39,788 nucleotides of DNA from a virus, in the IMG/VR virus record IMGVR_UViG_3300029412_000011. The stretch is one strand, 5' to 3'. The position numbers were made by a program, and so were the translations under genes. Shown here in pieces: positions 2,432-39,788 of this stretch. The first letter of the stretch is position 1; each line of letters opens with the position of its first letter. The notes under the pieces are model-generated. The model made no database searches. It was not told where the DNA came from and saw nothing but the letters and a program-made list of their open reading frames with translations.

Positions 2432-2455
2432 AGCACCCTTCGGGGTGCTTTTCTT
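2432..2455 (+). terminator. Rho-independent terminator after the cassette
   Basis: AGCACCC-TTCG-GGGTGCT stem-loop followed by TTTCTT. Confidence 0.8.
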
Positions 2456-2513
2456 ATCCCCTTAGCTCAGTGGTAGAGCACAAATGTCCCAGGTTCGATT
2501 CCTGGAGGGGATA
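2456..2513 (+). ncRNA. tRNA-like element lacking an anticodon arm (acceptor, D and T arms only)
   Basis: Acceptor stem ATCCCCT (2456-2462) pairs with AGGGGAT (2506-2512). D-arm is GCTC-AGTGGTA-GAGC (2465-2479). T-arm is CCAGG-TTCGATT-CCTGG (2489-2505). Only 9 nt (ACAAATGTC) lie between the D and T arms. Confidence 0.6.
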
Positions 2514-2539: not shown

Positions 2540-3277
2540 ATGATGCCGAGAAAGCCGGACGAAAGAATAATTCAGGCAAAAGAACTATACCTGAAAGGAC
2601 TGAAATTAGTTGAGATTGCAAGTCAACTAAGTCTTCCGGAAGGAACAGTTAGACGATGGAAAAGTACTTATAAATGGGATAACGAACGTTCGGATAAAAA
2701 TAGCGAACGTTCGGATAAAAAGAAAGGCGGTCAGCCTAGTAATAAAAATGCAGAAAAGCATGGTTTCTTCTCGAAGTATCTTCCGGAAGAGACCTTTTCT
2801 ATTATCCAGGACATCGAGAAGAAAAATCCTCTTGATATTCTCTGGGAGAATATACAGATTGCTTATGCAGCCATCGTAAGAGCGCAGCAGATCATGTATG
2901 TAAAAGACCATGAGGATAAGACGATTGAAAAGATAGAGGAAAAAGAGGGAAATGTTATAGGTGAAAAATGGGAGGTACAACAGGCATGGGATAAACAGGC
3001 AACATTTTTAAAAGCACAGGCAAGGGCACAAGGAGAATTAAGGTCCTTGATAAAGCAATATGATGAACTGTTGCATAGTAATTATGAACTTGCAACAGAG
3101 GAGCAGAAAGCTAGGATCGAGCAGATCAGGGCGAAGACGGAGCGGTTATCTACCGAACCAACAGACAATTTGGAGGATGGAGTTGAGATTATAAATGACG
3201 CAGACGAAAAGGCAAGTCAGAATATCGGACATAGTGATACCGAAGTATCTTCCGATATTCAACGACAAGAAACATAA
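2540..3277 (+). CDS. terS: Terminase small subunit (N-terminal HTH type)
   Basis: Contains KELYLKGLKLVEIASQLSLPEGTVRRWKS HTH and lies directly upstream of terL. SD is AAAGAGGTGGTGA. Start is ATG 2540 or 2543. Confidence 0.75.
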   Translation: MMPRKPDERIIQAKELYLKGLKLVEIASQLSLPEGTVRRWKSTYKWDNERSDKNSERSDKKKGGQPSNKNAEKHGFFSKYLPEETFSIIQDIEKKNPLDILWENIQIAYAAIVRAQQIMYVKDHEDKTIEKIEEKEGNVIGEKWEVQQAWDKQATFLKAQARAQGELRSLIKQYDELLHSNYELATEEQKARIEQIRAKTERLSTEPTDNLEDGVEIINDADEKASQNIGHSDTEVSSDIQRQET

Positions 3278-33055: not shown

Positions 33056-33103
33056 AAGAAAAAGGAGCTTTACACCAAGAATAGTGCGAGCTCCTTTTTC
33101 TTA
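33056..33103. terminator. Bidirectional terminator between convergent genes
   Basis: AAGAAAAAGGAGCT / AGCTCCTTTTTCTT 13-14-bp stem flanked by A- and T-runs. Confidence 0.75.
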
Positions 33104-33460
33104 TTCTTTTACAAATATTTTTTTAATTTGTTTTTTGATTGCATCTCTGGCATCTACCGGAAGCCCCAAGTAAAAATTTAAAATGTCTCGATCGTCATCG
33201 TCCAAGTCATATTCGATGCACAACTCATCCAGAATAGTCTCTGGCAGATCTTCAAACATTTCGCCATCGCCATATGTCAGGTAATCATAATTTACCTTAT
33301 ATTCACGGCAAATAGAGATAGTCATTTGCTCGGTGAGATTACGTTTTCCATTTTCAATGGCGGAAAGTGCTGCCTTTTTGACTCCTAATTTTTCGCCAAA
33401 TTTATCAAGTGTTAGGCCTAAAGTTTTCCGCACTTCTTTTATGCGTTCGCCCTGTGTCAT
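33101..33460 (-). CDS. CI-like XRE-family repressor
   Basis: Contains the HTH GERIKEVRKTLGLTLDKFGEKLGVKKAALSAIENGKR. Divergent from the early operon. Confidence 0.8.
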   Translation of the reverse strand: MTQGERIKEVRKTLGLTLDKFGEKLGVKKAALSAIENGKRNLTEQMTISICREYKVNYDYLTYGDGEMFEDLPETILDELCIEYDLDDDDRDILNFYLGLPVDARDAIKKQIKKIFVKE

Positions 33461-33522: not shown

Positions 33523-33575
33523 GTTTACAAAATAGACAAAAAAGTATTGACATAATCTATTTTGTAAACTATAAT
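33523..33575 (+). promoter_or_regulatory. Early rightward promoter (TTGACA, 17 nt, TATAAT; perfect consensus) with a 14-bp inverted-repeat operator pair
   Basis: -35 at 33547-33552 and -10 at 33570-33575. GTTTACAAAATAGA (33523-33536) and TCTATTTTGTAAAC (33556-33569, inside the spacer) are exact reverse complements. Confidence 0.75.
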
Positions 33576-34796: not shown

Positions 34797-35555
34797 TTGA
34801 TAAACGTATTAAAGATAGGACCAGAAGATATGAGTTATACGAAAAATATATATGAATTTGATAATGCAATAGAGGTTGAGGAAAAACACACTTACAGATA
34901 CCGTTCTCCAGGCATGAAAAGGGAGAAGAAAAAGAAACTCACTCCTGCTCAGATGAAAGCTGTCAATCAGAAGAATAAGGAGAAGACCTGTAGAAGAAAG
35001 CTGAGAAAACACTTCGAAGAGAACGATTACTTTGTATGTCTTACATACGAAAAAGAAAAACGTCCGTCCGACATGACAGAAGCAAAGAGAGATTTTTCGG
35101 ATGCAATGAAGGTGATCCGGAGGGAATACGGGAAGGCAGGATACAAAGTGAAATGGATACGCAACATTGAGGTAGGAACCAAGAACGGATGGCATGTCCA
35201 TCTGGTAATAAACAGAATACCAGATACAGATTTGATATTGCGGAAAGCCTGGAAGAAAGGAAAAGTAATTTGCCAACTAATGTACGAAAAAGGTGAGTTT
35301 AAAGACCTGGCCGCATACATCACTAAAACTCCGGAAACGGACAAACGTCTAAGAGAGACAAGCTATTCCACATCAAGAAATCTTCCACTGCCAGAGCCAA
35401 AAAAGAAGACATATGTAAGATGGAAAACCTGGAACAAAATCAGGATTCCAAAAGGATATTACTTAGACGAGGAAACAGTACATGAGGGAAATAATCCTTT
35501 TACTGGTTATCCCTATCGAGAATATACCTTGCTAAAATTAAAGAGGAGGGAATGA
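34797..35555 (+). CDS. HUH-superfamily rolling-circle-type replication initiator (Rep)
   Basis: Motif 1 YFVCLTY, motif 2 WHVHLVIN (HUH), motif 3 LAAYITKT (catalytic Tyr-xx-K). Start is either TTG 34797 or ATG 34830. Confidence 0.7.
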   Translation: MINVLKIGPEDMSYTKNIYEFDNAIEVEEKHTYRYRSPGMKREKKKKLTPAQMKAVNQKNKEKTCRRKLRKHFEENDYFVCLTYEKEKRPSDMTEAKRDFSDAMKVIRREYGKAGYKVKWIRNIEVGTKNGWHVHLVINRIPDTDLILRKAWKKGKVICQLMYEKGEFKDLAAYITKTPETDKRLRETSYSTSRNLPLPEPKKKTYVRWKTWNKIRIPKGYYLDEETVHEGNNPFTGYPYREYTLLKLKRRE

Positions 35556-35556
35556 G

Positions 35557-35985
35557 ATGGAAGTACATATCTACATAGGGACAGACAGTAAAGCCCCAAG
35601 AGTACAACCCCGCAAATACGGATATGTGCTTGCCTGCACACTAAAAGGAAAACTAGCAACAAAACAGGGGTTCAAGGAAACAACAGGAACATACAATAGG
35701 GCTACCTTGGAAGCCATAACGGAAGCAGTAGCCCGGGTAGTAAAACAAAGTGAAATACATATCCATACGGAAAATGCCTTTATTCTCACAATGCTAGAAG
35801 AAAATTTAGACAAATGGGAACAAAATGGATATGTAACCACAAAAGGAGAACCAGTGGCAAATGGAGACTTGTGGAAGCAACTGAAAGAAAAAGCTAGGGA
35901 GCATCTGCTTTTGTCAGAACCGGGGAAGCACGAATACAGTATGTGGATACAAGAACAGCTAAAAAGAGCAACTATAAATTGCTAA
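35557..35985 (+). CDS. RNase H-like protein
   Basis: IYIGTDS..., TYNRATLEAITEA, IHIHTENAF and VANGDLWKQL parallel the RNase HI D-E-D-D segments. Confidence 0.6.
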   Translation: MEVHIYIGTDSKAPRVQPRKYGYVLACTLKGKLATKQGFKETTGTYNRATLEAITEAVARVVKQSEIHIHTENAFILTMLEENLDKWEQNGYVTTKGEPVANGDLWKQLKEKAREHLLLSEPGKHEYSMWIQEQLKRATINC

Positions 35986-36039
35986 AACCCGCATAAATCC
36001 CAAATAGGGGAGCGATTTTGAAAAGTAGTAAGAAAGAAG

Positions 36040-36070
36040 TTATCCACAGGTTTGTGGATAATGTGGATAA
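36040..36070. promoter_or_regulatory. Cluster of three perfect DnaA boxes (TTATCCACA 36040-36048; TGTGGATAA 36053-36061 and 36062-36070)
   Basis: Exact matches to the 9-mer consensus, one in forward and two in reverse orientation, followed by an AT-rich stretch. Confidence 0.65.
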
Positions 36071-36120
36071 TTAATAGAGAGGATGAAAAGGGATATTTGA
36101 TAAATTTGGAGAAATAGCTG

Positions 36121-36223
36121 GACAACCTCCAGAGGTTTTACATATTACAGCAACTTGTTAACGGTTCCGTGAGAACTATATGCCATTGATTCCTCCGGGA
36201 ATCCGGAGGAGAAAGGAATCAAA
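36121..36223 (+). ncRNA. Conserved structured leader element, copy A
   Basis: Shares AACTTGTTAAC, CTATATGCCATTGATT and AGAAAGGAA blocks with 37889-38010. Hairpins are GTTC-CGTGA-GAAC and CCTCCGG-GAAT-CCGGAGG. Ends at ATG 36224. Confidence 0.5.
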
Positions 36224-36799
36224 ATGTTTTTGAACCATAAAATTTTAAAAAAGTTATTAAAAGAAGCGTATAAGCATAGAACCCTTTATCTTGCTTGCAA
36301 AGCAGAAAGCTTATATATAGCAGCAGGATACTGGGAGATGGAATTTTTAAAAGAATACATTCCAAAAGAAACATTAGGGGATATTGTAGCACTTTCGGGA
36401 ATGCTTCCAGAAGATGGACAGCGGTATCAAGTTTTAGAATCAGGTAATCAGTTAGAGACTGGATTGCCACTTGAAATAGAAAGATATATGGATATGCGCC
36501 CAACAGAGGTGACAAATTGGTTAAATATTTCAAGTGCAAGCAGAATATTACGAGTATTGCAGGATGCGTCTGGTGAAACCAAATTAGTAGATGATACCTG
36601 CGTAAAAGCGGTAGACAGTAGTTATTGCGAAACAGAAAAAGGAGAAACAGCACCAGCAAGTCCTACTTATAACGAATGGTCTGTTGTATGGGAAAATAAT
36701 GTTGGCAAATTCAGAGTAATGCTTCACCGAATGGATGAAGATAAAGAGGGAGTATTAAAACAATTAGGAATGGTAGATTTGAGGAGGAATCCTGATTGA
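36224..36799 (+). CDS. Hypothetical replication-module protein (191 aa)
   Basis: ORF directly follows element copy A. No recognisable motifs. Confidence 0.7.
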   Translation: MFLNHKILKKLLKEAYKHRTLYLACKAESLYIAAGYWEMEFLKEYIPKETLGDIVALSGMLPEDGQRYQVLESGNQLETGLPLEIERYMDMRPTEVTNWLNISSASRILRVLQDASGETKLVDDTCVKAVDSSYCETEKGETAPASPTYNEWSVVWENNVGKFRVMLHRMDEDKEGVLKQLGMVDLRRNPD

Positions 36800-37122
36800 A
36801 AAAACGAAAGAAACATAAATCGAGTATATTACAACAAAAGGGAGAACCTTGTTACCTCTGCATGAAATTAAAACCAATGCAAGAGTGGAGACGAGCGGTA
36901 CATGAACACCATATATTTGGCGGTTCGAACAGAAACAAGTCGGAAGCGGAAGGATTAAAAGTTTATCTTTGCCTGGAACATCATATCAGTGGCAAGGAAG
37001 CGGTACATAACAATGCTGAAATGATGAGATTACTTAGAGAAGATGGACAAAGAGCTTTCGAACAGAAATATACAAGAGAGGAGTTTATGAAGATGTTTGG
37101 TAAAAATTACTTAGAAGAATGA
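36796..37122 (+). CDS. HNH-type nuclease-like protein (Ref / RecA-dependent nuclease-like pattern)
   Basis: Pattern CYLC...HEHHIFGGSNRNKSEAEGLKVYLCLEHH...AVHNN. ATGA-type overlap with the upstream gene. Confidence 0.5.
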   Translation: MKKRKKHKSSILQQKGEPCYLCMKLKPMQEWRRAVHEHHIFGGSNRNKSEAEGLKVYLCLEHHISGKEAVHNNAEMMRLLREDGQRAFEQKYTREEFMKMFGKNYLEE

Positions 37123-37904
37123 AAGGCGATAAAATGAACGATTTAATGATTTTTGAAAATGCAGAATTTGGGAAAGTACGAACTATGAATATCAATAATG
37201 AACCATGGTTTTGTTTATTGGATATATGTAAGGCTTTAGAAATTAAAAATATTAGTCAGCTGAAAACTAGACTGAATGGAGATGGGGTCATTATTAATGA
37301 GGTCATCGATAACGTAGGAAGAAAGCAAAATGCAAACTTTGTGAATGAGGCTAATTTGTATAAAGTTATTTTTCAGAGCCGAAAGGCATCTGCAAATAGA
37401 TTCATTGACTGGGTAGCGGGAGAAGTTCTCCCATCTATTCGTAAAAACGGTGGGTACATAATGAATCAGGAATGTATGACTCCAGAAGAAATCATGGCTG
37501 CTGGATTAAAAGCAGCGCAGAAGATAATTGAGAGTAAAGACAAAGAGATTCATCGCATGAAACCCAAGGAAATTTTTGCAGATGCAGTGGCTACTAGCGA
37601 GACTTCTATTTTGATTGGGGAGTTAGCGAAAATCATCAAGCAAAATGGAGTAAGCATGGGACAGAATAAATTGTTCTCCTGGATGCGTGAGAATGGATAT
37701 TTAATTAAACGCAAGGGCAGTGATTATAATATGCCAACACAAAAATCTATGGAGATGGGACTTTTCGAAATAAAGGAGACAAGTATTACAAAGCCAGATG
37801 GATCTACTCACATCACAAAAACAACAAAAGTAACTGGAAAGGGACAACAATATTTTATCAACAAATTTTTAAAGAATAACAAGAAGCGGACACACCTCTC
37901 CTGA
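37119..37904 (+). CDS. Bro-N / KilA-C (ANT) antirepressor-type protein
   Basis: N-terminal LMIFENAEFGKVRTMNINNEPWFCLLDICKAL indicates Bro-N. C-terminal ILIGELAKIIKQNGVSMGQNKLFSWMRENGYL indicates KilAC. ATG 37134 is an alternative start. Confidence 0.8.
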   Translation: MKGDKMNDLMIFENAEFGKVRTMNINNEPWFCLLDICKALEIKNISQLKTRLNGDGVIINEVIDNVGRKQNANFVNEANLYKVIFQSRKASANRFIDWVAGEVLPSIRKNGGYIMNQECMTPEEIMAAGLKAAQKIIESKDKEIHRMKPKEIFADAVATSETSILIGELAKIIKQNGVSMGQNKLFSWMRENGYLIKRKGSDYNMPTQKSMEMGLFEIKETSITKPDGSTHITKTTKVTGKGQQYFINKFLKNNKKRTHLS

Positions 37905-38010
37905 GGTTTGTACATACACATTGCAGTAACTTGTTAACCGCTCCATGTGCGAGCACGGAGCTATATGCCATTGATTCCCCGGCAATGCCGGGGAGAAAGG
38001 AAAAATAAAC
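37889..38010 (+). ncRNA. Conserved structured leader element, copy B
   Basis: Same conserved blocks as copy A. Hairpins are GCTCCATG-TGCGAG-CACGGAGC and CCCCGGC-AAT-GCCGGGG. Ends at ATG 38011. Confidence 0.5.
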
Positions 38011-38634
38011 ATGACAGAAAAAAATAACCAGGCAGTAGTTGCAGGAGAAATTATCTCTGATTTTGAATTCAGCCATGAGGTTTTTGGCGAAGGATTTTAT
38101 TTTGTGAAGTTAAAAGTGAGCAGACTTAGTCGCTCAAGTGATATTATTCCGTTACTTGTATCAGAACGGCTTATTGATGTGAGTGAATCGCATATAGGTC
38201 AGTTTTTGGAAGCTCGTGGACAGTTCCGTTCGTATAACAAACAAGAAGGCAATCGAAGTCATCTGATTTTATCCTTATTCGTGATGGAACTTGAATTCAT
38301 CGACAGTATAGAGAATCGAAATCCAAATACGATTTTCCTTGATGGATATATTTGCAAAGAACCTGCCTATAGAACAACACCTCTTGGAAGAGAAATTGCA
38401 GATGTGTTATTGGCTGTAAACAGGGCTTATGGCAAGTCTGATTATATTCCGTGCATATGTTGGGGAAGGAATGCAAGATATGCGGGTAATCTTTCGGTAG
38501 GAAGTAGAATCCAGTTATGGGGACGTATTCAGAGCAGAGAATATCAGAAACAAATTGGAGAAGGTAAGGTAGTTGATAAAGTGGCCTTTGAAGTTTCTGC
38601 AAGCCAGATGGAATATATCGAGGAGGAAGAATGA
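38011..38634 (+). CDS. ssb: Single-stranded DNA-binding protein (tandem OB-fold type)
   Basis: Two OB-like halves (NQAVVAGEI...FYFVKLKVSRLSRSSDIIPLLV and NTIFLDGYICKEPAYRTTPLGREIADVLLAV) and an acidic C-terminal tail YIEEEE. Confidence 0.65.
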   Translation: MTEKNNQAVVAGEIISDFEFSHEVFGEGFYFVKLKVSRLSRSSDIIPLLVSERLIDVSESHIGQFLEARGQFRSYNKQEGNRSHLILSLFVMELEFIDSIENRNPNTIFLDGYICKEPAYRTTPLGREIADVLLAVNRAYGKSDYIPCICWGRNARYAGNLSVGSRIQLWGRIQSREYQKQIGEGKVVDKVAFEVSASQMEYIEEEE

Positions 38635-38852
38635 ATAAATGGATACCAGTAACAGAAAAATTACCAGAAAGGGATGGATTATACATAGTGACATTTGACG
38701 GGGAATTAGTTGGACAGAAAGAACCGTTCGCAAGTACCAATTATTTTGAAAATGGTCAATGGGATGATGGAGATAGTGTTATCGCATGGATGAGACTGCC
38801 GGAGCCATACAGACCGAAAGATAATAAAGAAAAACCAGCATGGGGAGATTGA
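38631..38852 (+). CDS. DUF551-like small phage protein
   Basis: MNKWIPVTEKLPERDGLYIV...AWMRLPEPY matches the DUF551 pattern. Confidence 0.6.
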   Translation: MNKWIPVTEKLPERDGLYIVTFDGELVGQKEPFASTNYFENGQWDDGDSVIAWMRLPEPYRPKDNKEKPAWGD

Positions 38853-39673: not shown

Positions 39674-39788
39674 GGCGGTAGGATGGATACACGAAATCAT
39701 GAACACTACAAAGACAAAACGGCGCATGATGCGATTAGGGCAGCGGATAAGCCGCCGGATTCAGTAACAAGAACAATTAATGCTATGA
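39666..39788 (+). repeat. Terminal direct repeat, copy 2
   Basis: Identical to 1-123. It contains the start of the same ORF as 18..206 (ATG at 39683). Confidence 0.95.

What the first reader, a model, noticed from the sequence alone, without database searches (positions are those of the whole stretch)
36121..36223. Roughly 100-nt structured element present twice (36121-36223 and 37889-38010) with compensatory base changes, each ending at the start codon of a replication-module gene
The two copies share identical single-stranded blocks: AACTTGTTAAC (36152-36162 / 37928-37938), CTATATGCCATTGATT (36176-36191 / 37961-37976) and AGAAAGGAA (36210-36218 / 37994-38002). Between the blocks lie hairpins at equivalent positions whose sequences differ while pairing is kept. 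Hairpin 2 is CCTCCGG-GAAT-CCGGAGG in copy A and CCCCGGC-AAT-GCCGGGG in copy B, with three stem positions changed on both strands. Hairpin 1 is GTTC-CGTGA-GAAC in A and GCTCC(A)TG-TGCGAG-CA(C)GGAGC in B. Both copies begin with a small CCTC..GAGG hairpin (..ACCTCCAGAGGTTT.. / ..ACCTCTCCTGAGGTTTG..). Both end with the SD and ATG of a gene: the 191-aa protein and the SSB. Conserved loops with covarying stems argue for a functional folded nucleic acid. Candidates are an mRNA leader (translational or stability control, for example autoregulation by the SSB) or a structure formed in ssDNA, such as an ssDNA promoter or initiation signal like those known upstream of ssb genes on conjugative plasmids. 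I do not recognise it as any named RNA family.
Basis: seen in the sequence. Interest (0 to 1): 0.75.

Follow-up and report, generated by a model that had tools for sequence, protein, structure and literature searches.

The report
Structured intergenic cassette of gut phages
The two look-alike 110-125-base stretches are real copies of an undescribed, three-hairpin intergenic element that over a hundred human-gut phage contigs carry between varied early genes; it most likely works as folded mRNA and also marks where these phages swap genes, but its function is not established.

Summary
Copy A (36117-36226) and copy B (37885-38013) share exact 11-, 16- and 9-nt blocks separated by three hairpins whose stems differ but stay paired.

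- **Family.** The same element occurs in at least 100 IMG/VR gut-phage contigs, with 61 distinct sequences. It is always co-oriented with the genes. It starts at or over the stop codon of at least 10 different upstream genes. It ends with a Shine-Dalgarno (SD) ribosome-binding site and start codon of at least 12 different, mostly unannotated, downstream genes.
- **Structure.** 99% of stem cells pair, and 7 pairs change on both sides. However, only three alleles of the third hairpin exist, and hairpin alleles reassort between phages.
- **Databases.** No match in Rfam, GenBank phages or plasmids.
- **Rejected readings.** It is not an Frpo-type ssDNA promoter, not a sigma-70 promoter, not protein-coding and not specific to the ssb gene.
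- **Best reading (about 0.45).** A cis-acting RNA module inside the early operon transcript that controls processing, stability or translation. Its conserved linkers also act as recombination points. In that respect it resembles the PeSL cassettes of T4-type phages.
- **Not excluded.** A DNA-level role or an antitermination role.

It is novel as a family, but its function is unproven.

The parts
36117..36226 (+). Copy A of the element, whole (5' block, H0, linker J01, H1, linker J12, H2, SD, ATG)
   Evidence: Covariance-model R1 hit of 98.8 bits, E 6e-20; nhmmer E 3e-25.
36117..36124 (+). 5' block GCTGGACA, nearly invariant in the family. With the 5' arm of H0 it matches the universal 16S rRNA 3' end GCTGGATCACCTCC at 12 of 14 positions.
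   Evidence: Conservation in alignment A3. 16S comparison; this comparison was made after the fact.
36124..36137 (+). Hairpin H0 of copy A (AACCT-CCAG-AGGTT)
   Evidence: Folds. Family stem classes CCC/GGG and CCTC/GAGG.
36138..36163 (+). Linker J01 (..ACATATTACAG-CAAC-TTGT-TAAC), conserved core with a yAAC-N4-yAAC pattern
36164..36176 (+). Hairpin H1 of copy A, short allele GTTC-CGTGA-GAAC
   Evidence: Family pair counts UG 34, CG 19, UA 7 at pair 65-85.
36176..36191 (+). Linker J12, CTATATGCCATTGATT. It is the anchor used to find the family, so its invariance in the first set is by ascertainment. A scan not anchored on it still found it, with only two variants. It contains an ATG that does not behave as a conserved start codon.
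   Evidence: (variants GATATTCC and GTCATTGACC).
36190..36211 (+). Hairpin H2 of copy A, allele I (CCTCCGG-GAAT-CCGGAGG) plus two U-A / U.G pairs at its base
36210..36226 (+). SD AGAAAGGAA and ATG (36224) of the 191-aa ORF of unknown function
37885..38013 (+). Copy B of the element, whole. The Ant gene stop codon (37902-37904) lies inside its H0.
   Evidence: R1 hit at 37889-38010, 90.4 bits.
37890..37911 (+). Hairpin H0 of copy B (core ACCTC-TCCT-GAGGT at 37894-37907, extended by ACA/TGT)
37940..37961 (+). Hairpin H1 of copy B, long allele GCTCC(A)TG-TGCGAG-CA(C)GGAGC
37961..37976 (+). Linker J12 of copy B, identical to that of copy A
37977..37993 (+). Hairpin H2 of copy B, allele III (CCCCGGC-AAT-GCCGGGG)
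37994..38013 (+). SD AGAAAGGAA and ATG (38011) of the 207-aa SSB-like gene
33547..33575 (+). Consensus early promoter TTGACA-17-TATAAT, divergent from the repressor gene. It is the likely source of the transcript that carries both copies.
   Evidence: 12 of 12 match, and no + strand terminator-like site between it and the window end at 39788.
36040..36070 (.). Three perfect DnaA boxes just upstream of copy A. They are context only and belong to window-type phages, not to the family element.

Best explanation
The element is a modular, cis-acting RNA segment of the phage early polycistronic transcript, read from the + strand.

**Proposed mechanism.** It is transcribed from the early promoter and folds into three short hairpins (H0, H1, H2) separated by near-invariant single-stranded linkers. 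I propose that a trans-acting host or phage factor, such as an RNase, an RNA-binding protein or the transcribing or translating machinery, recognises the linkers. This sets the fate of the distal early mRNA: cleavage or stabilisation, plus independent translation start at the SD that directly follows H2. It does so for whichever gene lies downstream.

**Secondary consequence.** Because the linkers are so conserved, the element is also a preferred point of homologous recombination. That shuffles both the flanking genes and the hairpin alleles. In this sense it is a 'mobile regulatory cassette'.

**Shown:** the sequence family, hairpin conservation, fixed orientation and junctions, mosaic contexts, and the absence of a promoter, a terminator or a coding frame.

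**Inferred:** that it is transcribed, that it acts as RNA, that a factor binds the linkers, and what the regulatory outcome is.
For: - **Orientation and junctions.** The element is always on the coding strand. It starts 0-23 nt around the stop codon of the upstream gene (at least 10 gene families; some ORFs read into it, ending ...LDTLRG*). It ends with AGAAAGGA and a start codon of at least 12 gene families. 104 instances have a downstream ORF starting at the element's 3' end.
- **Transcription context.** A 12/12 sigma-70 promoter lies at 33547-33575. No + strand terminator-like site lies between it and the window end, so both copies are inside the early operon.
- **Hairpin conservation.**
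  - 99.0% of 985 stem cells form standard pairs, against 44-73% when partners are slid by 1-3 columns.
  - 7 pairs change on both sides, and 0 of 500 shuffles reach the observed values.
  - H2 exists as CCTCCGG/CCGGAGG, CCCCGAC/GTCGGGG and CCCCGGC/GCCGGGG.
- **Wobble pairs.** Common alleles carry U.G pairs on the + strand that would be A.C mismatches on the other strand. H1 pair 65-85 is UG 34, CG 19, UA 7. At the H2 base, one pair is UG 60 and the next is UG 34, UA 25.
- **No promoter.** 45 of 60 distinct sequences contain no sigma-70-like promoter even at 8 of 12 matches, and none sits at a consistent position.
- **Recombination.** H0, J01, H1 and H2 alleles occur in many combinations. Gene insertions and deletions sit exactly at the 3' edge. 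The 191-aa ORF is present in the window but absent in L199/L208/L222. A 139-aa gene lies between the element and ssb in L118. L049 keeps a 5-codon remnant of a gene.
- **Precedent in the same phages.** Majority-type relatives carry hammerhead type II ribozymes in the same early operon, likewise starting at a stop codon.
Against: - No transcript data exist, so RNA rather than DNA function is not proven.
- Rare stem variants give as many + strand A.C mismatches as G.U pairs (L021, L026, L044 against L014, L104). The wobble argument therefore rests only on the common alleles.
- Independent covariation events are few: three H2 alleles and two H0 stem classes. Hairpin loops flip as whole palindromes (AGAA/TTCT, ATTTATT/AATAAAT), which is a DNA-level process.
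- Predicted SD accessibility is no better with the native element than with shuffled upstream sequence (0.59 against 0.59).
- Only 1-2 copies occur per phage and the downstream genes are unrelated. This argues against gene-specific translational control.
- Ribosomes terminating inside H0 would melt it in many contexts.
- No trans-acting partner gene was found to co-occur consistently.
Confidence: 0.45

Rival explanations
1. It is a DNA-level element. The conserved blocks would be bound as double-stranded DNA, or the hairpins used as cruciforms or ssDNA. The role could be a recombination 'linker' or module-boundary sequence, an origin-associated or priming site, or an operator. On this reading the hairpin potential is maintained by palindrome dynamics or by protein recognition, not by RNA folding.
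For: - Mosaic junctions sit exactly at the element, and its parts reassort internally.
- Whole-hairpin inversions are seen.
- Copy A lies 47 nt downstream of three perfect DnaA boxes and next to a rolling-circle (HUH) Rep gene and an RNase H gene.
- DNA-parameter folds are better than shuffles for both copies and both strands (z -3.0 to -3.6).
- A tyrosine recombinase gene ends 10 nt before the element in L088, L007, L062 and L074.
Against: - DnaA boxes, Rep and RNase H occur only in window-type phages, not across the family.
- There are no iterons and no AT-rich unwinding region.
- The hairpin arms change sequence while staying complementary, and spacing varies. This argues against a sequence-specific dimeric DNA-binding protein.
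- The strict junction with an SD and start codon is unexplained by a DNA role.
- Most loci have no recombinase nearby.
Confidence: 0.2
2. It is a processive antitermination RNA, in the manner of HK022 put or Bacillus EAR. The folded transcript would modify RNA polymerase so that it reads through the strong terminator that precedes the terminase genes.
For: - 1-2 copies per phage, intercistronic, 105-130 nt, with hairpins plus conserved unpaired bases.
- Independence from the identity of the next gene.
- A strong intrinsic terminator lies downstream before terS, both in the window (2433-2455) and in L017 (2234-2209 on the - strand).
Against: - No sequence or structure match to the EAR or put models or to any other Rfam family.
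- Inclusion of the SD and the flush junction to the start codon are not needed for antitermination.
- A -10-like hexamer (TAGAAT, 2415-2420; read by eye, no -35 checked) lies just upstream of the terminator hairpin. If it is a promoter, this would suggest a separate Q-type late control.
- No terminator readthrough data exist.
Confidence: 0.12
3. It is a promoter plus 5' UTR cassette. J01 and J12, or GGACA plus a downstream hexamer, would be -35/-10 elements for the host or a phage sigma factor. H2 would be a 5'-terminal stabiliser hairpin of the resulting mRNA.
For: - Copy A scores TGGACA-16-CATATT at 9 of 12.
- With short H1 alleles, TTGTTA and TATATG are 16-17 nt apart.
- The truncated copies in L203/L216 keep exactly H2 plus the SD.
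- The layout resembles PeSL cassettes (PMC2839356).
Against: - 45 of 60 distinct sequences have no sigma-70-like site at 8 of 12 or better, and the best sites are at inconsistent positions.
- TATATG lacks the invariant final T of a -10 hexamer.
- Long H1 alleles stretch the putative spacer to 25 nt.
- The motif occurs nowhere else in the window, so it is not a regulon-wide phage promoter.
Confidence: 0.07
4. It is a translational operator for the phage SSB (autoregulation, in the manner of T4 gp32 or f1 gene V protein), or an Frpo/ssi-type ssDNA promoter. These are the first reader's two candidates.
For: - Copy B and about 25 homologues directly precede the SSB-like gene.
- SSB-mediated translational repression and ssDNA promoters upstream of ssb are established elsewhere (PMC11541004 for Frpo).
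Against: - At least 11 other gene families follow the element.
- SSB homologues at about 51-59% identity lack it and carry a different leader.
- The host is a tailed phage with terminase and tail genes, not a conjugative leading region.
- The hairpins are 3-9 bp and do not rebuild -35/-10 boxes.
- No similarity to any PLSDB plasmid.
Confidence: 0.05

Closest known systems
PeSL (promoter-early stem-loop) mobile regulatory cassettes of T4-type phages (PMC2839356, PMC4122927)
   Same: - Conserved short intergenic cassettes containing stem-loops.
- They flank non-essential genes of unknown function.
- Recombination within the cassette causes insertions, deletions and replacements of the flanking genes.
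- Chimeric cassettes are observed.
   Different: - PeSLs contain a consensus sigma-70 promoter and a GC-rich terminator stem-loop, and occur many times per genome in lytic myoviruses.
- This element has no promoter and no terminator.
- It has three hairpins with long invariant linkers and carries an SD.
- It occurs once or twice per genome, in temperate siphovirus-like gut phages.
HK022 putL/putR and Bacillus EAR processive-antitermination RNAs
   Same: - Cis-acting structured RNAs of 70-120 nt inside operons.
- Two copies per phage (put) or an intercistronic position (EAR).
- Covarying stems with conserved unpaired bases.
- Function independent of the adjacent gene.
   Different: - No match to any Rfam model.
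- No demonstrated link to terminators.
- This element is fused to an SD and start codon.
Phage T7 RNase III processing sites
   Same: Repeated, related structured elements between cistrons of a polycistronic phage mRNA, just upstream of translation starts. They affect mRNA stability and translation.
   Different: T7 sites are single long irregular hairpins of about two helical turns. Here the hairpins are 3-9 bp and the conserved parts are single-stranded.
Frpo/ssi single-stranded-DNA promoters of conjugative plasmids (PMC11541004)
   Same: Repeated structured sequences upstream of ssb and other early genes, all on one strand.
   Different: Frpo is a long hairpin that mimics duplex -35/-10 boxes on the transferred strand of a plasmid. 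None of that is present here.
Hammerhead type II ribozymes in the same phage group
   Same: Intercistronic, begin at a stop codon in the same early operon (L001, L017, L053).
   Different: The element does not match any ribozyme model in Rfam. Self-cleavage is untested.

Membership tests
Any Rfam 15 family | Score at or above the family's gathering threshold | tested here: not met
   The only window hit is a tRNA-like sequence at 2456-2513. In 35900-38100 at E<=10 there are only chance hits; the best is Plastid-rpl20 at 29.5 bits against a threshold of 53.
Frpo/ssi ssDNA promoter | Long imperfect hairpin in ssDNA that reconstitutes -35 and -10 boxes | tested here: not met
   DNA folds give only three hairpins of 4-9 bp. 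45 of 60 sequences have no sigma-70-like site.
Frpo/ssi ssDNA promoter | Located in the leading region of a conjugative element, on the transferred strand | tested here: not met
   The window is a tailed phage with small terminase, a 1188-aa ORF of tape-measure size, a repressor and an antirepressor.
Frpo/ssi ssDNA promoter | Sequence similarity to known Frpo/ssi elements or to plasmid homologues | tested here: not met
   No blastn match of copy A to 72,556 plasmids at E<=0.01. Known Frpo sequences were not compared directly.
PeSL cassette | Consensus sigma-70 early promoter inside the cassette | tested here: not met
PeSL cassette | Stem-loop acting as a terminator (GC-rich stem, T-run) | tested here: not met
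   No terminator-like site on the + strand within either copy. H2 is followed by purines.
PeSL cassette | Cassettes flank variable genes of unknown function and are crossover points | tested here: met
put/EAR-type antitermination RNA | Lies in a transcript upstream of terminators that it helps read through | tested here: inconclusive
   Strong terminators lie before terS in the window and in L017. No functional link can be tested with these tools.
put/EAR-type antitermination RNA | Match to the family's covariance model or consensus structure | tested here: not met
   No such Rfam hit.
SSB translational operator (gp32 / gene V type) | Element specifically associated with the SSB gene or its regulon | tested here: not met
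   12 or more downstream gene families. Absent upstream of the SSB homologues of about 51-59% identity.
Self-cleaving ribozyme (known classes) | Match to hammerhead, twister, pistol, hatchet, HDV-like or similar models | tested here: not met
   Cleavage activity itself cannot be tested with these tools.
Protein-coding or leader-peptide ORF | Conserved open frame, or consistent frame relation of the J12 ATG to the main ORF | tested here: not met
   Stop codons occur in all frames in many alleles. The J12 ATG is in frame with the main ORF in about one third of contexts, as expected by chance.
Integron attC or IS200/IS605-PATE-type ssDNA recombination site | Associated integrase or HUH transposase, and a defined target or core sites at the ends | tested here: not met
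   The HUH Rep gene is found only in window-type phages. A tyrosine recombinase is next to the element in only four loci. The 5' flanks share no target motif. GTTAAC does not fit the integron core site GTTRRRY (read from the sequence).

The most novel reading that the evidence does not exclude
The element is a new class of intercistronic RNA-processing signal. It would be either self-cleaving or a mimic that recruits host rRNA-maturation factors.

- Its 5' end (GCUGGACAACCUCC, followed by a CCUC...GAGG hairpin) resembles the 3' end of pre-16S rRNA. There, GCUGGAUCACCUCCUUUCU|AAGGAG can form an anti-SD/SD-like hairpin.
- This resemblance could direct the 16S 3'-end machinery (YbeY, Era or 3' exonucleases) to cut the phage early mRNA at the element.
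- The cut would release a downstream message that starts with protective hairpins and an SD.
Probability: 0.07. Interest if true: 0.85.

Novelty: new variant of a known kind. Interest (0 to 1): 0.55.

Why it matters
If the element acts as proposed, it would be a portable expression and processing module that gut temperate phages place in front of whatever accessory gene they acquire. The same module would also drive the gene shuffling that makes their early regions mosaic.

- It would add a new structured-RNA family to a very abundant but uncultured phage group.
- It would give a concrete and testable case of regulatory cassettes mediating modular evolution outside T4-type phages.
- It would provide a compact insulating leader that synthetic biologists could try in Firmicutes.

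If it proves to be a processing signal or a ribozyme, the interest would be considerably higher.

Tried and rejected
- **Rfam.** Gathering thresholds on the whole window and E<=10 on 35900-38100 gave no family.
- **Sequence databases.** blastn of the copies against 50,697 GenBank phages and 72,556 plasmids gave nothing. The longer region hit only the Ant gene.
- **Species-representative genomes.** The 18-mer gave only one true hit, in an unnamed metagenome-assembled genome, so the host was not identified.
- **Sigma-70 promoter.** Rejected.
- **Protein-coding or leader peptide.** Rejected.
- **'Insulator that keeps the SD open'.** No difference from shuffled controls.
- **Linker pairing with 16S rRNA.** J01 and J12 do no better than shuffles.
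- **Partner genes.**
  - Rep, RNase H and the 191-aa ORF are confined to window-type phages.
  - The 108-aa Cys/His-rich ORF, which looks HNH-like by eye, lies in the same held locus as 77 of 136 element instances, mostly about 500 nt upstream.
  - No protein family was universal in the partial loci.
- **More H2 alleles.** Three targeted scans found only one point mutant, so there are three alleles in all.
- **Long-range pairing or pseudoknot between linkers.** Only AU-rich 4-5-mers by eye, with no covariation possible because the linkers barely vary.
- **Chi-site, sigma-54 and sporulation-sigma readings of the conserved blocks.** Considered from memory and dropped because the matches are not conserved across alleles.
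- **Not used.** The metagenome scan was not run.
Full report
**1. The observation**

The region 35400-38700 was read directly. Each occurs exactly twice in the 39.8-kb window on either strand.

A pairwise alignment gives 77% identity, with the differences concentrated in the hairpins. RNA and DNA folding of the + strand recover three hairpins in each copy:
- H0: A 36124-36137, B 37890-37911.
- H1: A 36164-36176, B 37940-37961.
- H2: A 36192-36209, B 37977-37993.

H2 is CCTCCGG/CCGGAGG in A and CCCCGGC/GCCGGGG in B, so three positions are changed on both arms.

Each element in fact begins about 4 nt earlier than reported, with a conserved block GCTGGACA (36117). In copy B the stop codon of the antirepressor gene (37902-37904) lies inside H0.

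Single-sequence fold energies are only moderately unusual. As RNA, z is -1.1 for A and -3.4 for B. As DNA, z is about -3 for both.

**2. Context in the window**

The window is a tailed temperate phage. It has a small terminase subunit at 2534, a long run of + strand ORFs that includes one of 1188 aa (tape-measure size), and a repressor at 33101-33460 on the - strand.

A perfect TTGACA-17-TATAAT promoter at 33547-33575 points into a tightly packed + strand early operon:
- small ORFs,
- a rolling-circle (HUH) Rep protein (PF23343),
- RNase H,
- copy A,
- a 191-aa ORF of unknown function,
- a 108-aa Cys/His-rich ORF of unknown function (it looks HNH-like by eye, but has no Pfam hit; PHROGs lists it as unknown),
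- a Bro-N/KilAC antirepressor,
- copy B,
- a 207-aa SSB-like protein,
- a DUF551 protein, and further ORFs.

No + strand terminator-like site lies between the promoter and the end of the window. Both copies are therefore very probably inside the early transcript.

Three perfect DnaA boxes, the only ones in the window, sit at 36040-36070, just 5' of copy A.

**3. A family**

The 16-mer CTATATGCCATTGATT was scanned against IMG/VR. Of these, 94 carry the whole element, giving 49 distinct sequences with the two window copies.

Further loci came from a scan anchored on the other linker and from loci encoding SSB homologues. nhmmer finds the element in 133 held loci; some are the same contig fetched twice.

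A covariance model, R1 (121 positions, 17 pairs), aligned 65 instances, 61 of them distinct.

The consensus layout is:
- GCTGGACA,
- H0,
- a variable stretch,
- ACAyATTrCAG-yAAC-N4-yAAC,
- H1,
- CTATATGCCATTGATT,
- H2,
- (G/A)GAAAGGA, then 3-10 nt, then the start codon.

The second linker (J12) varies little even when it is not used as the search anchor. One variant has a 2-nt insertion (GATATTCC) and one is GTCATTGACC.

There is no match in Rfam, in 50,697 GenBank phages or in 72,556 plasmids. Only one true hit occurs among 185,579 species-representative genomes, in an unnamed metagenome-assembled genome. Exact copies of the window's SSB lie on human-gut metagenome contigs. The host is undetermined.

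**4. Structure**

On alignment A3:
- 99.0% of 985 stem cells form standard pairs, against 44-73% when the 3' partners are slid by 1-3 columns.
- 7 of 17 pairs show changes on both sides.
- None of 500 column shuffles reaches the observed pairing, covariation score or number of double changes.

Three caveats apply:
- A3 was fitted to the model's structure.
- H2 has only three alleles. Three targeted scans for others found one point mutant.
- H0 has two stem classes (CCC/GGG and CCTC/GAGG), and H1 has a constant 5-bp base with short and long extensions.

Hairpin loops also occur as reverse complements of each other on identical stems (AGAA and TTCT; ATTTATT and AATAAAT). This means whole palindromes invert at the DNA level and the loop sequences are not constrained.

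The hairpins are therefore real and maintained, but the number of independent compensatory events is small.

**5. Which strand, and RNA or DNA?**

Common alleles have U.G pairs on the + strand:
- H1 pair 65-85: UG 34, CG 19, UA 7.
- H2 base pairs: UG 60 at one pair; UG 34 and UA 25 at the next.

These would be A.C mismatches on the - strand, which favours + strand RNA.

Rare variants, however, produce + strand A.C mismatches about as often as G.U pairs. This argument is suggestive only.

Stronger support comes from orientation and position. Every instance is co-oriented with the flanking genes. Each begins within about 0-23 nt of the upstream stop codon. Each ends with an SD and a start codon.

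**6. What it is not**

- **Not a sigma-70 promoter.** 45 of 60 distinct sequences have no site at 8 of 12 or better. The few sites found are at inconsistent positions. The only -10-like block, TATATG, lacks the final T. Long H1 alleles stretch the would-be spacer to 25 nt.
- **No terminator.** There is none on the + strand within either copy.
- **Not coding.** Many alleles have stops in all frames. The conserved ATG in J12 is in frame with the downstream gene in about one third of contexts, as chance predicts.
- **Not tied to the SSB.** At least 12 unrelated gene families follow it. Most have no Pfam domain; the exceptions are DUF6273, DUF551, a double-HTH protein and the SSB. SSB homologues at about 51-59% identity lack it.
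- **Not tied to nearby window genes.** Rep, RNase H and the DnaA boxes are confined to window-type phages.
- **Not Frpo-like.** The hairpins are short, there are no promoter boxes, the host is a tailed phage and there are no plasmid relatives (features of Frpo taken from PMC11541004).
- **Not an SD 'insulator' by prediction.** SD accessibility is 0.59 with native upstream sequence and 0.59 with shuffled upstream sequence.
- **Linkers are not complementary to 16S rRNA.** They do no better than shuffles.

**7. Mosaicism**

Upstream and downstream genes differ completely between phages, while the element stays about 80-100% identical. Several different upstream ORFs read into the element and so end with the same ...LDTLRG* or ...LDTPL* tail.

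Alleles of H0, J01, H1 and H2 occur in many combinations, so crossovers happen inside the element.

Insertions and deletions sit at its 3' edge:
- The 191-aa ORF follows copy A in the window. It is absent in L199, L208 and L222, where the 108-aa gene follows directly.
- In L118 a 139-aa gene lies between the element and ssb.
- L049 keeps only five codons of a 65-aa gene.
- In L203 and L216, close relatives of the window phage, only H2 plus the SD remains at the position of copy B.

The two window copies carry different alleles, each shared with other phages. They are not a recent duplication.

**8. Best explanation and rivals**

*Best explanation.* The features fit a cis-acting RNA module of the early operon that is not specific to the next gene. 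It combines structure, conserved single-stranded recognition sequences and an SD, and it doubles as a recombination hotspot.

The nearest described analogue in behaviour is the PeSL cassette of T4-type phages (PMC2839356, PMC4122927). Those carry a consensus promoter and a terminator and occur in many copies, which this element does not.

Majority-type relatives carry hammerhead type II ribozymes elsewhere in the same operon, also starting at a stop codon. So RNA processing is used by these phages.

I put 0.45 on the RNA-module reading (processing, stability or translation).

*Rivals.*
- **DNA-level role, 0.20.**
- **put/EAR-like antitermination, 0.12.** Strong terminators do precede terS. A possible -10 hexamer just before the window's terminator would, if real, suggest separate late control.
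- **Promoter cassette, 0.07.**

*A speculative lead.* GCTGGACAACCTCC (copy A) matches the universal 16S rRNA 3' end GCTGGATCACCTCC at 12 of 14 positions. H0 resembles the hairpin that the anti-SD can form with the AAGGAG that starts the spacer in three Firmicutes. This was noticed after the fact; a match this close is expected somewhere in a 40-kb window about one time in four. It does, however, coincide with the most conserved 5' block.

**9. Verdict**

This is a real, previously undescribed, phylogenetically narrow family of structured intergenic cassettes in human-gut temperate phages. The function is unproven.

Noticed in passing
window 36040-36048 (+), 36053-36061 (-), 36062-36070 (-): Three perfect DnaA boxes (TTATCCACA), the only perfect ones in the window. 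They lie between the RNase H gene and copy A, next to a rolling-circle (HUH) Rep gene. This may be the phage origin or a DnaA-controlled promoter (TCCACA-17-GATAAT at 36043-36071). In the survey of loci held at that stage, such boxes were found only upstream of window copy A; the window-type relatives fetched later were not checked.
   Followed up: partly
window 2433-2513: A strong terminator hairpin (GCACCCTTCGGGGTGC plus a T-run) is immediately followed by a 58-nt tRNA-like sequence that has the acceptor, D and T arms but no anticodon arm. Rfam scores it as tRNA at 49 bits; ARAGORN finds nothing. It sits 20 nt before the small terminase gene. It could be a processing signal for the late mRNA or an attachment-site remnant.
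   Followed up: partly
L017 10578-10644 (-), L001 3251-3317 (+), L053 6993-7059 (-): Hammerhead type II ribozymes (45.7-52.8 bits against a threshold of 37) lie in the early operon of the majority-type phages that also carry the element. In L017 the ribozyme starts at the stop codon of a small ORF, about 170 nt before the antirepressor gene; in L001 the Ant match begins about 160 nt after it.
   Followed up: partly
L132 about 3160-3250, L138, L194, L181, L186, L188, L191, L193, L197, L135 (the 130 nt before the SSB-like gene): SSB-like genes at about 51-59% identity to the window's carry a different unannotated leader. Directly after the upstream stop codon comes a hairpin with at least six different complementary stems and a conserved loop, CCGaCCAAAGCA. 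A second hairpin then abuts the SD. The six of these loci scanned (L132, L135, L138, L181, L188, L194) gave no Rfam hit there. This may be a second new motif, and one that is specific to ssb.
   Followed up: partly
window 36117-36137; family-wide 5' end: The 5' block plus the H0 arm (GCTGGACAACCTCC) matches the universal 16S rRNA 3' terminus GCTGGATCACCTCC at 12 of 14 positions. The H0 hairpin mimics the anti-SD/AAGGAG hairpin possible at the pre-16S 3' end in Subdoligranulum, C. difficile and B. subtilis. The comparison was made after the fact and is untested.
   Followed up: partly
L203 8320-8360 and L216 1592-1718: In close relatives of the window phage, the position of copy B holds only the last hairpin plus the SD (TTCCCCGG-TTACGG-CCGGGG-AGAAAGGAAACAATG), in front of a DUF551-type gene. 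So the H2-SD part can persist without the rest of the element.
   Followed up: yes
L194 2413-2580 (-): A FuFi-1 RNA (143.7 bits) is encoded about 1.4 kb upstream of the SSB-like gene, on the opposite strand to it, in an unrelated phage contig.
   Followed up: no
window 36796-37122 and homologues: The 108-aa ORF (PHROG 7566, 'unknown function') has a CxxC...HHIFGG...N...LCxxHH pattern that by eye resembles an HNH nuclease. A homologue lies in the same held locus as 77 of 136 element instances, mostly about 500 nt upstream.
   Followed up: partly
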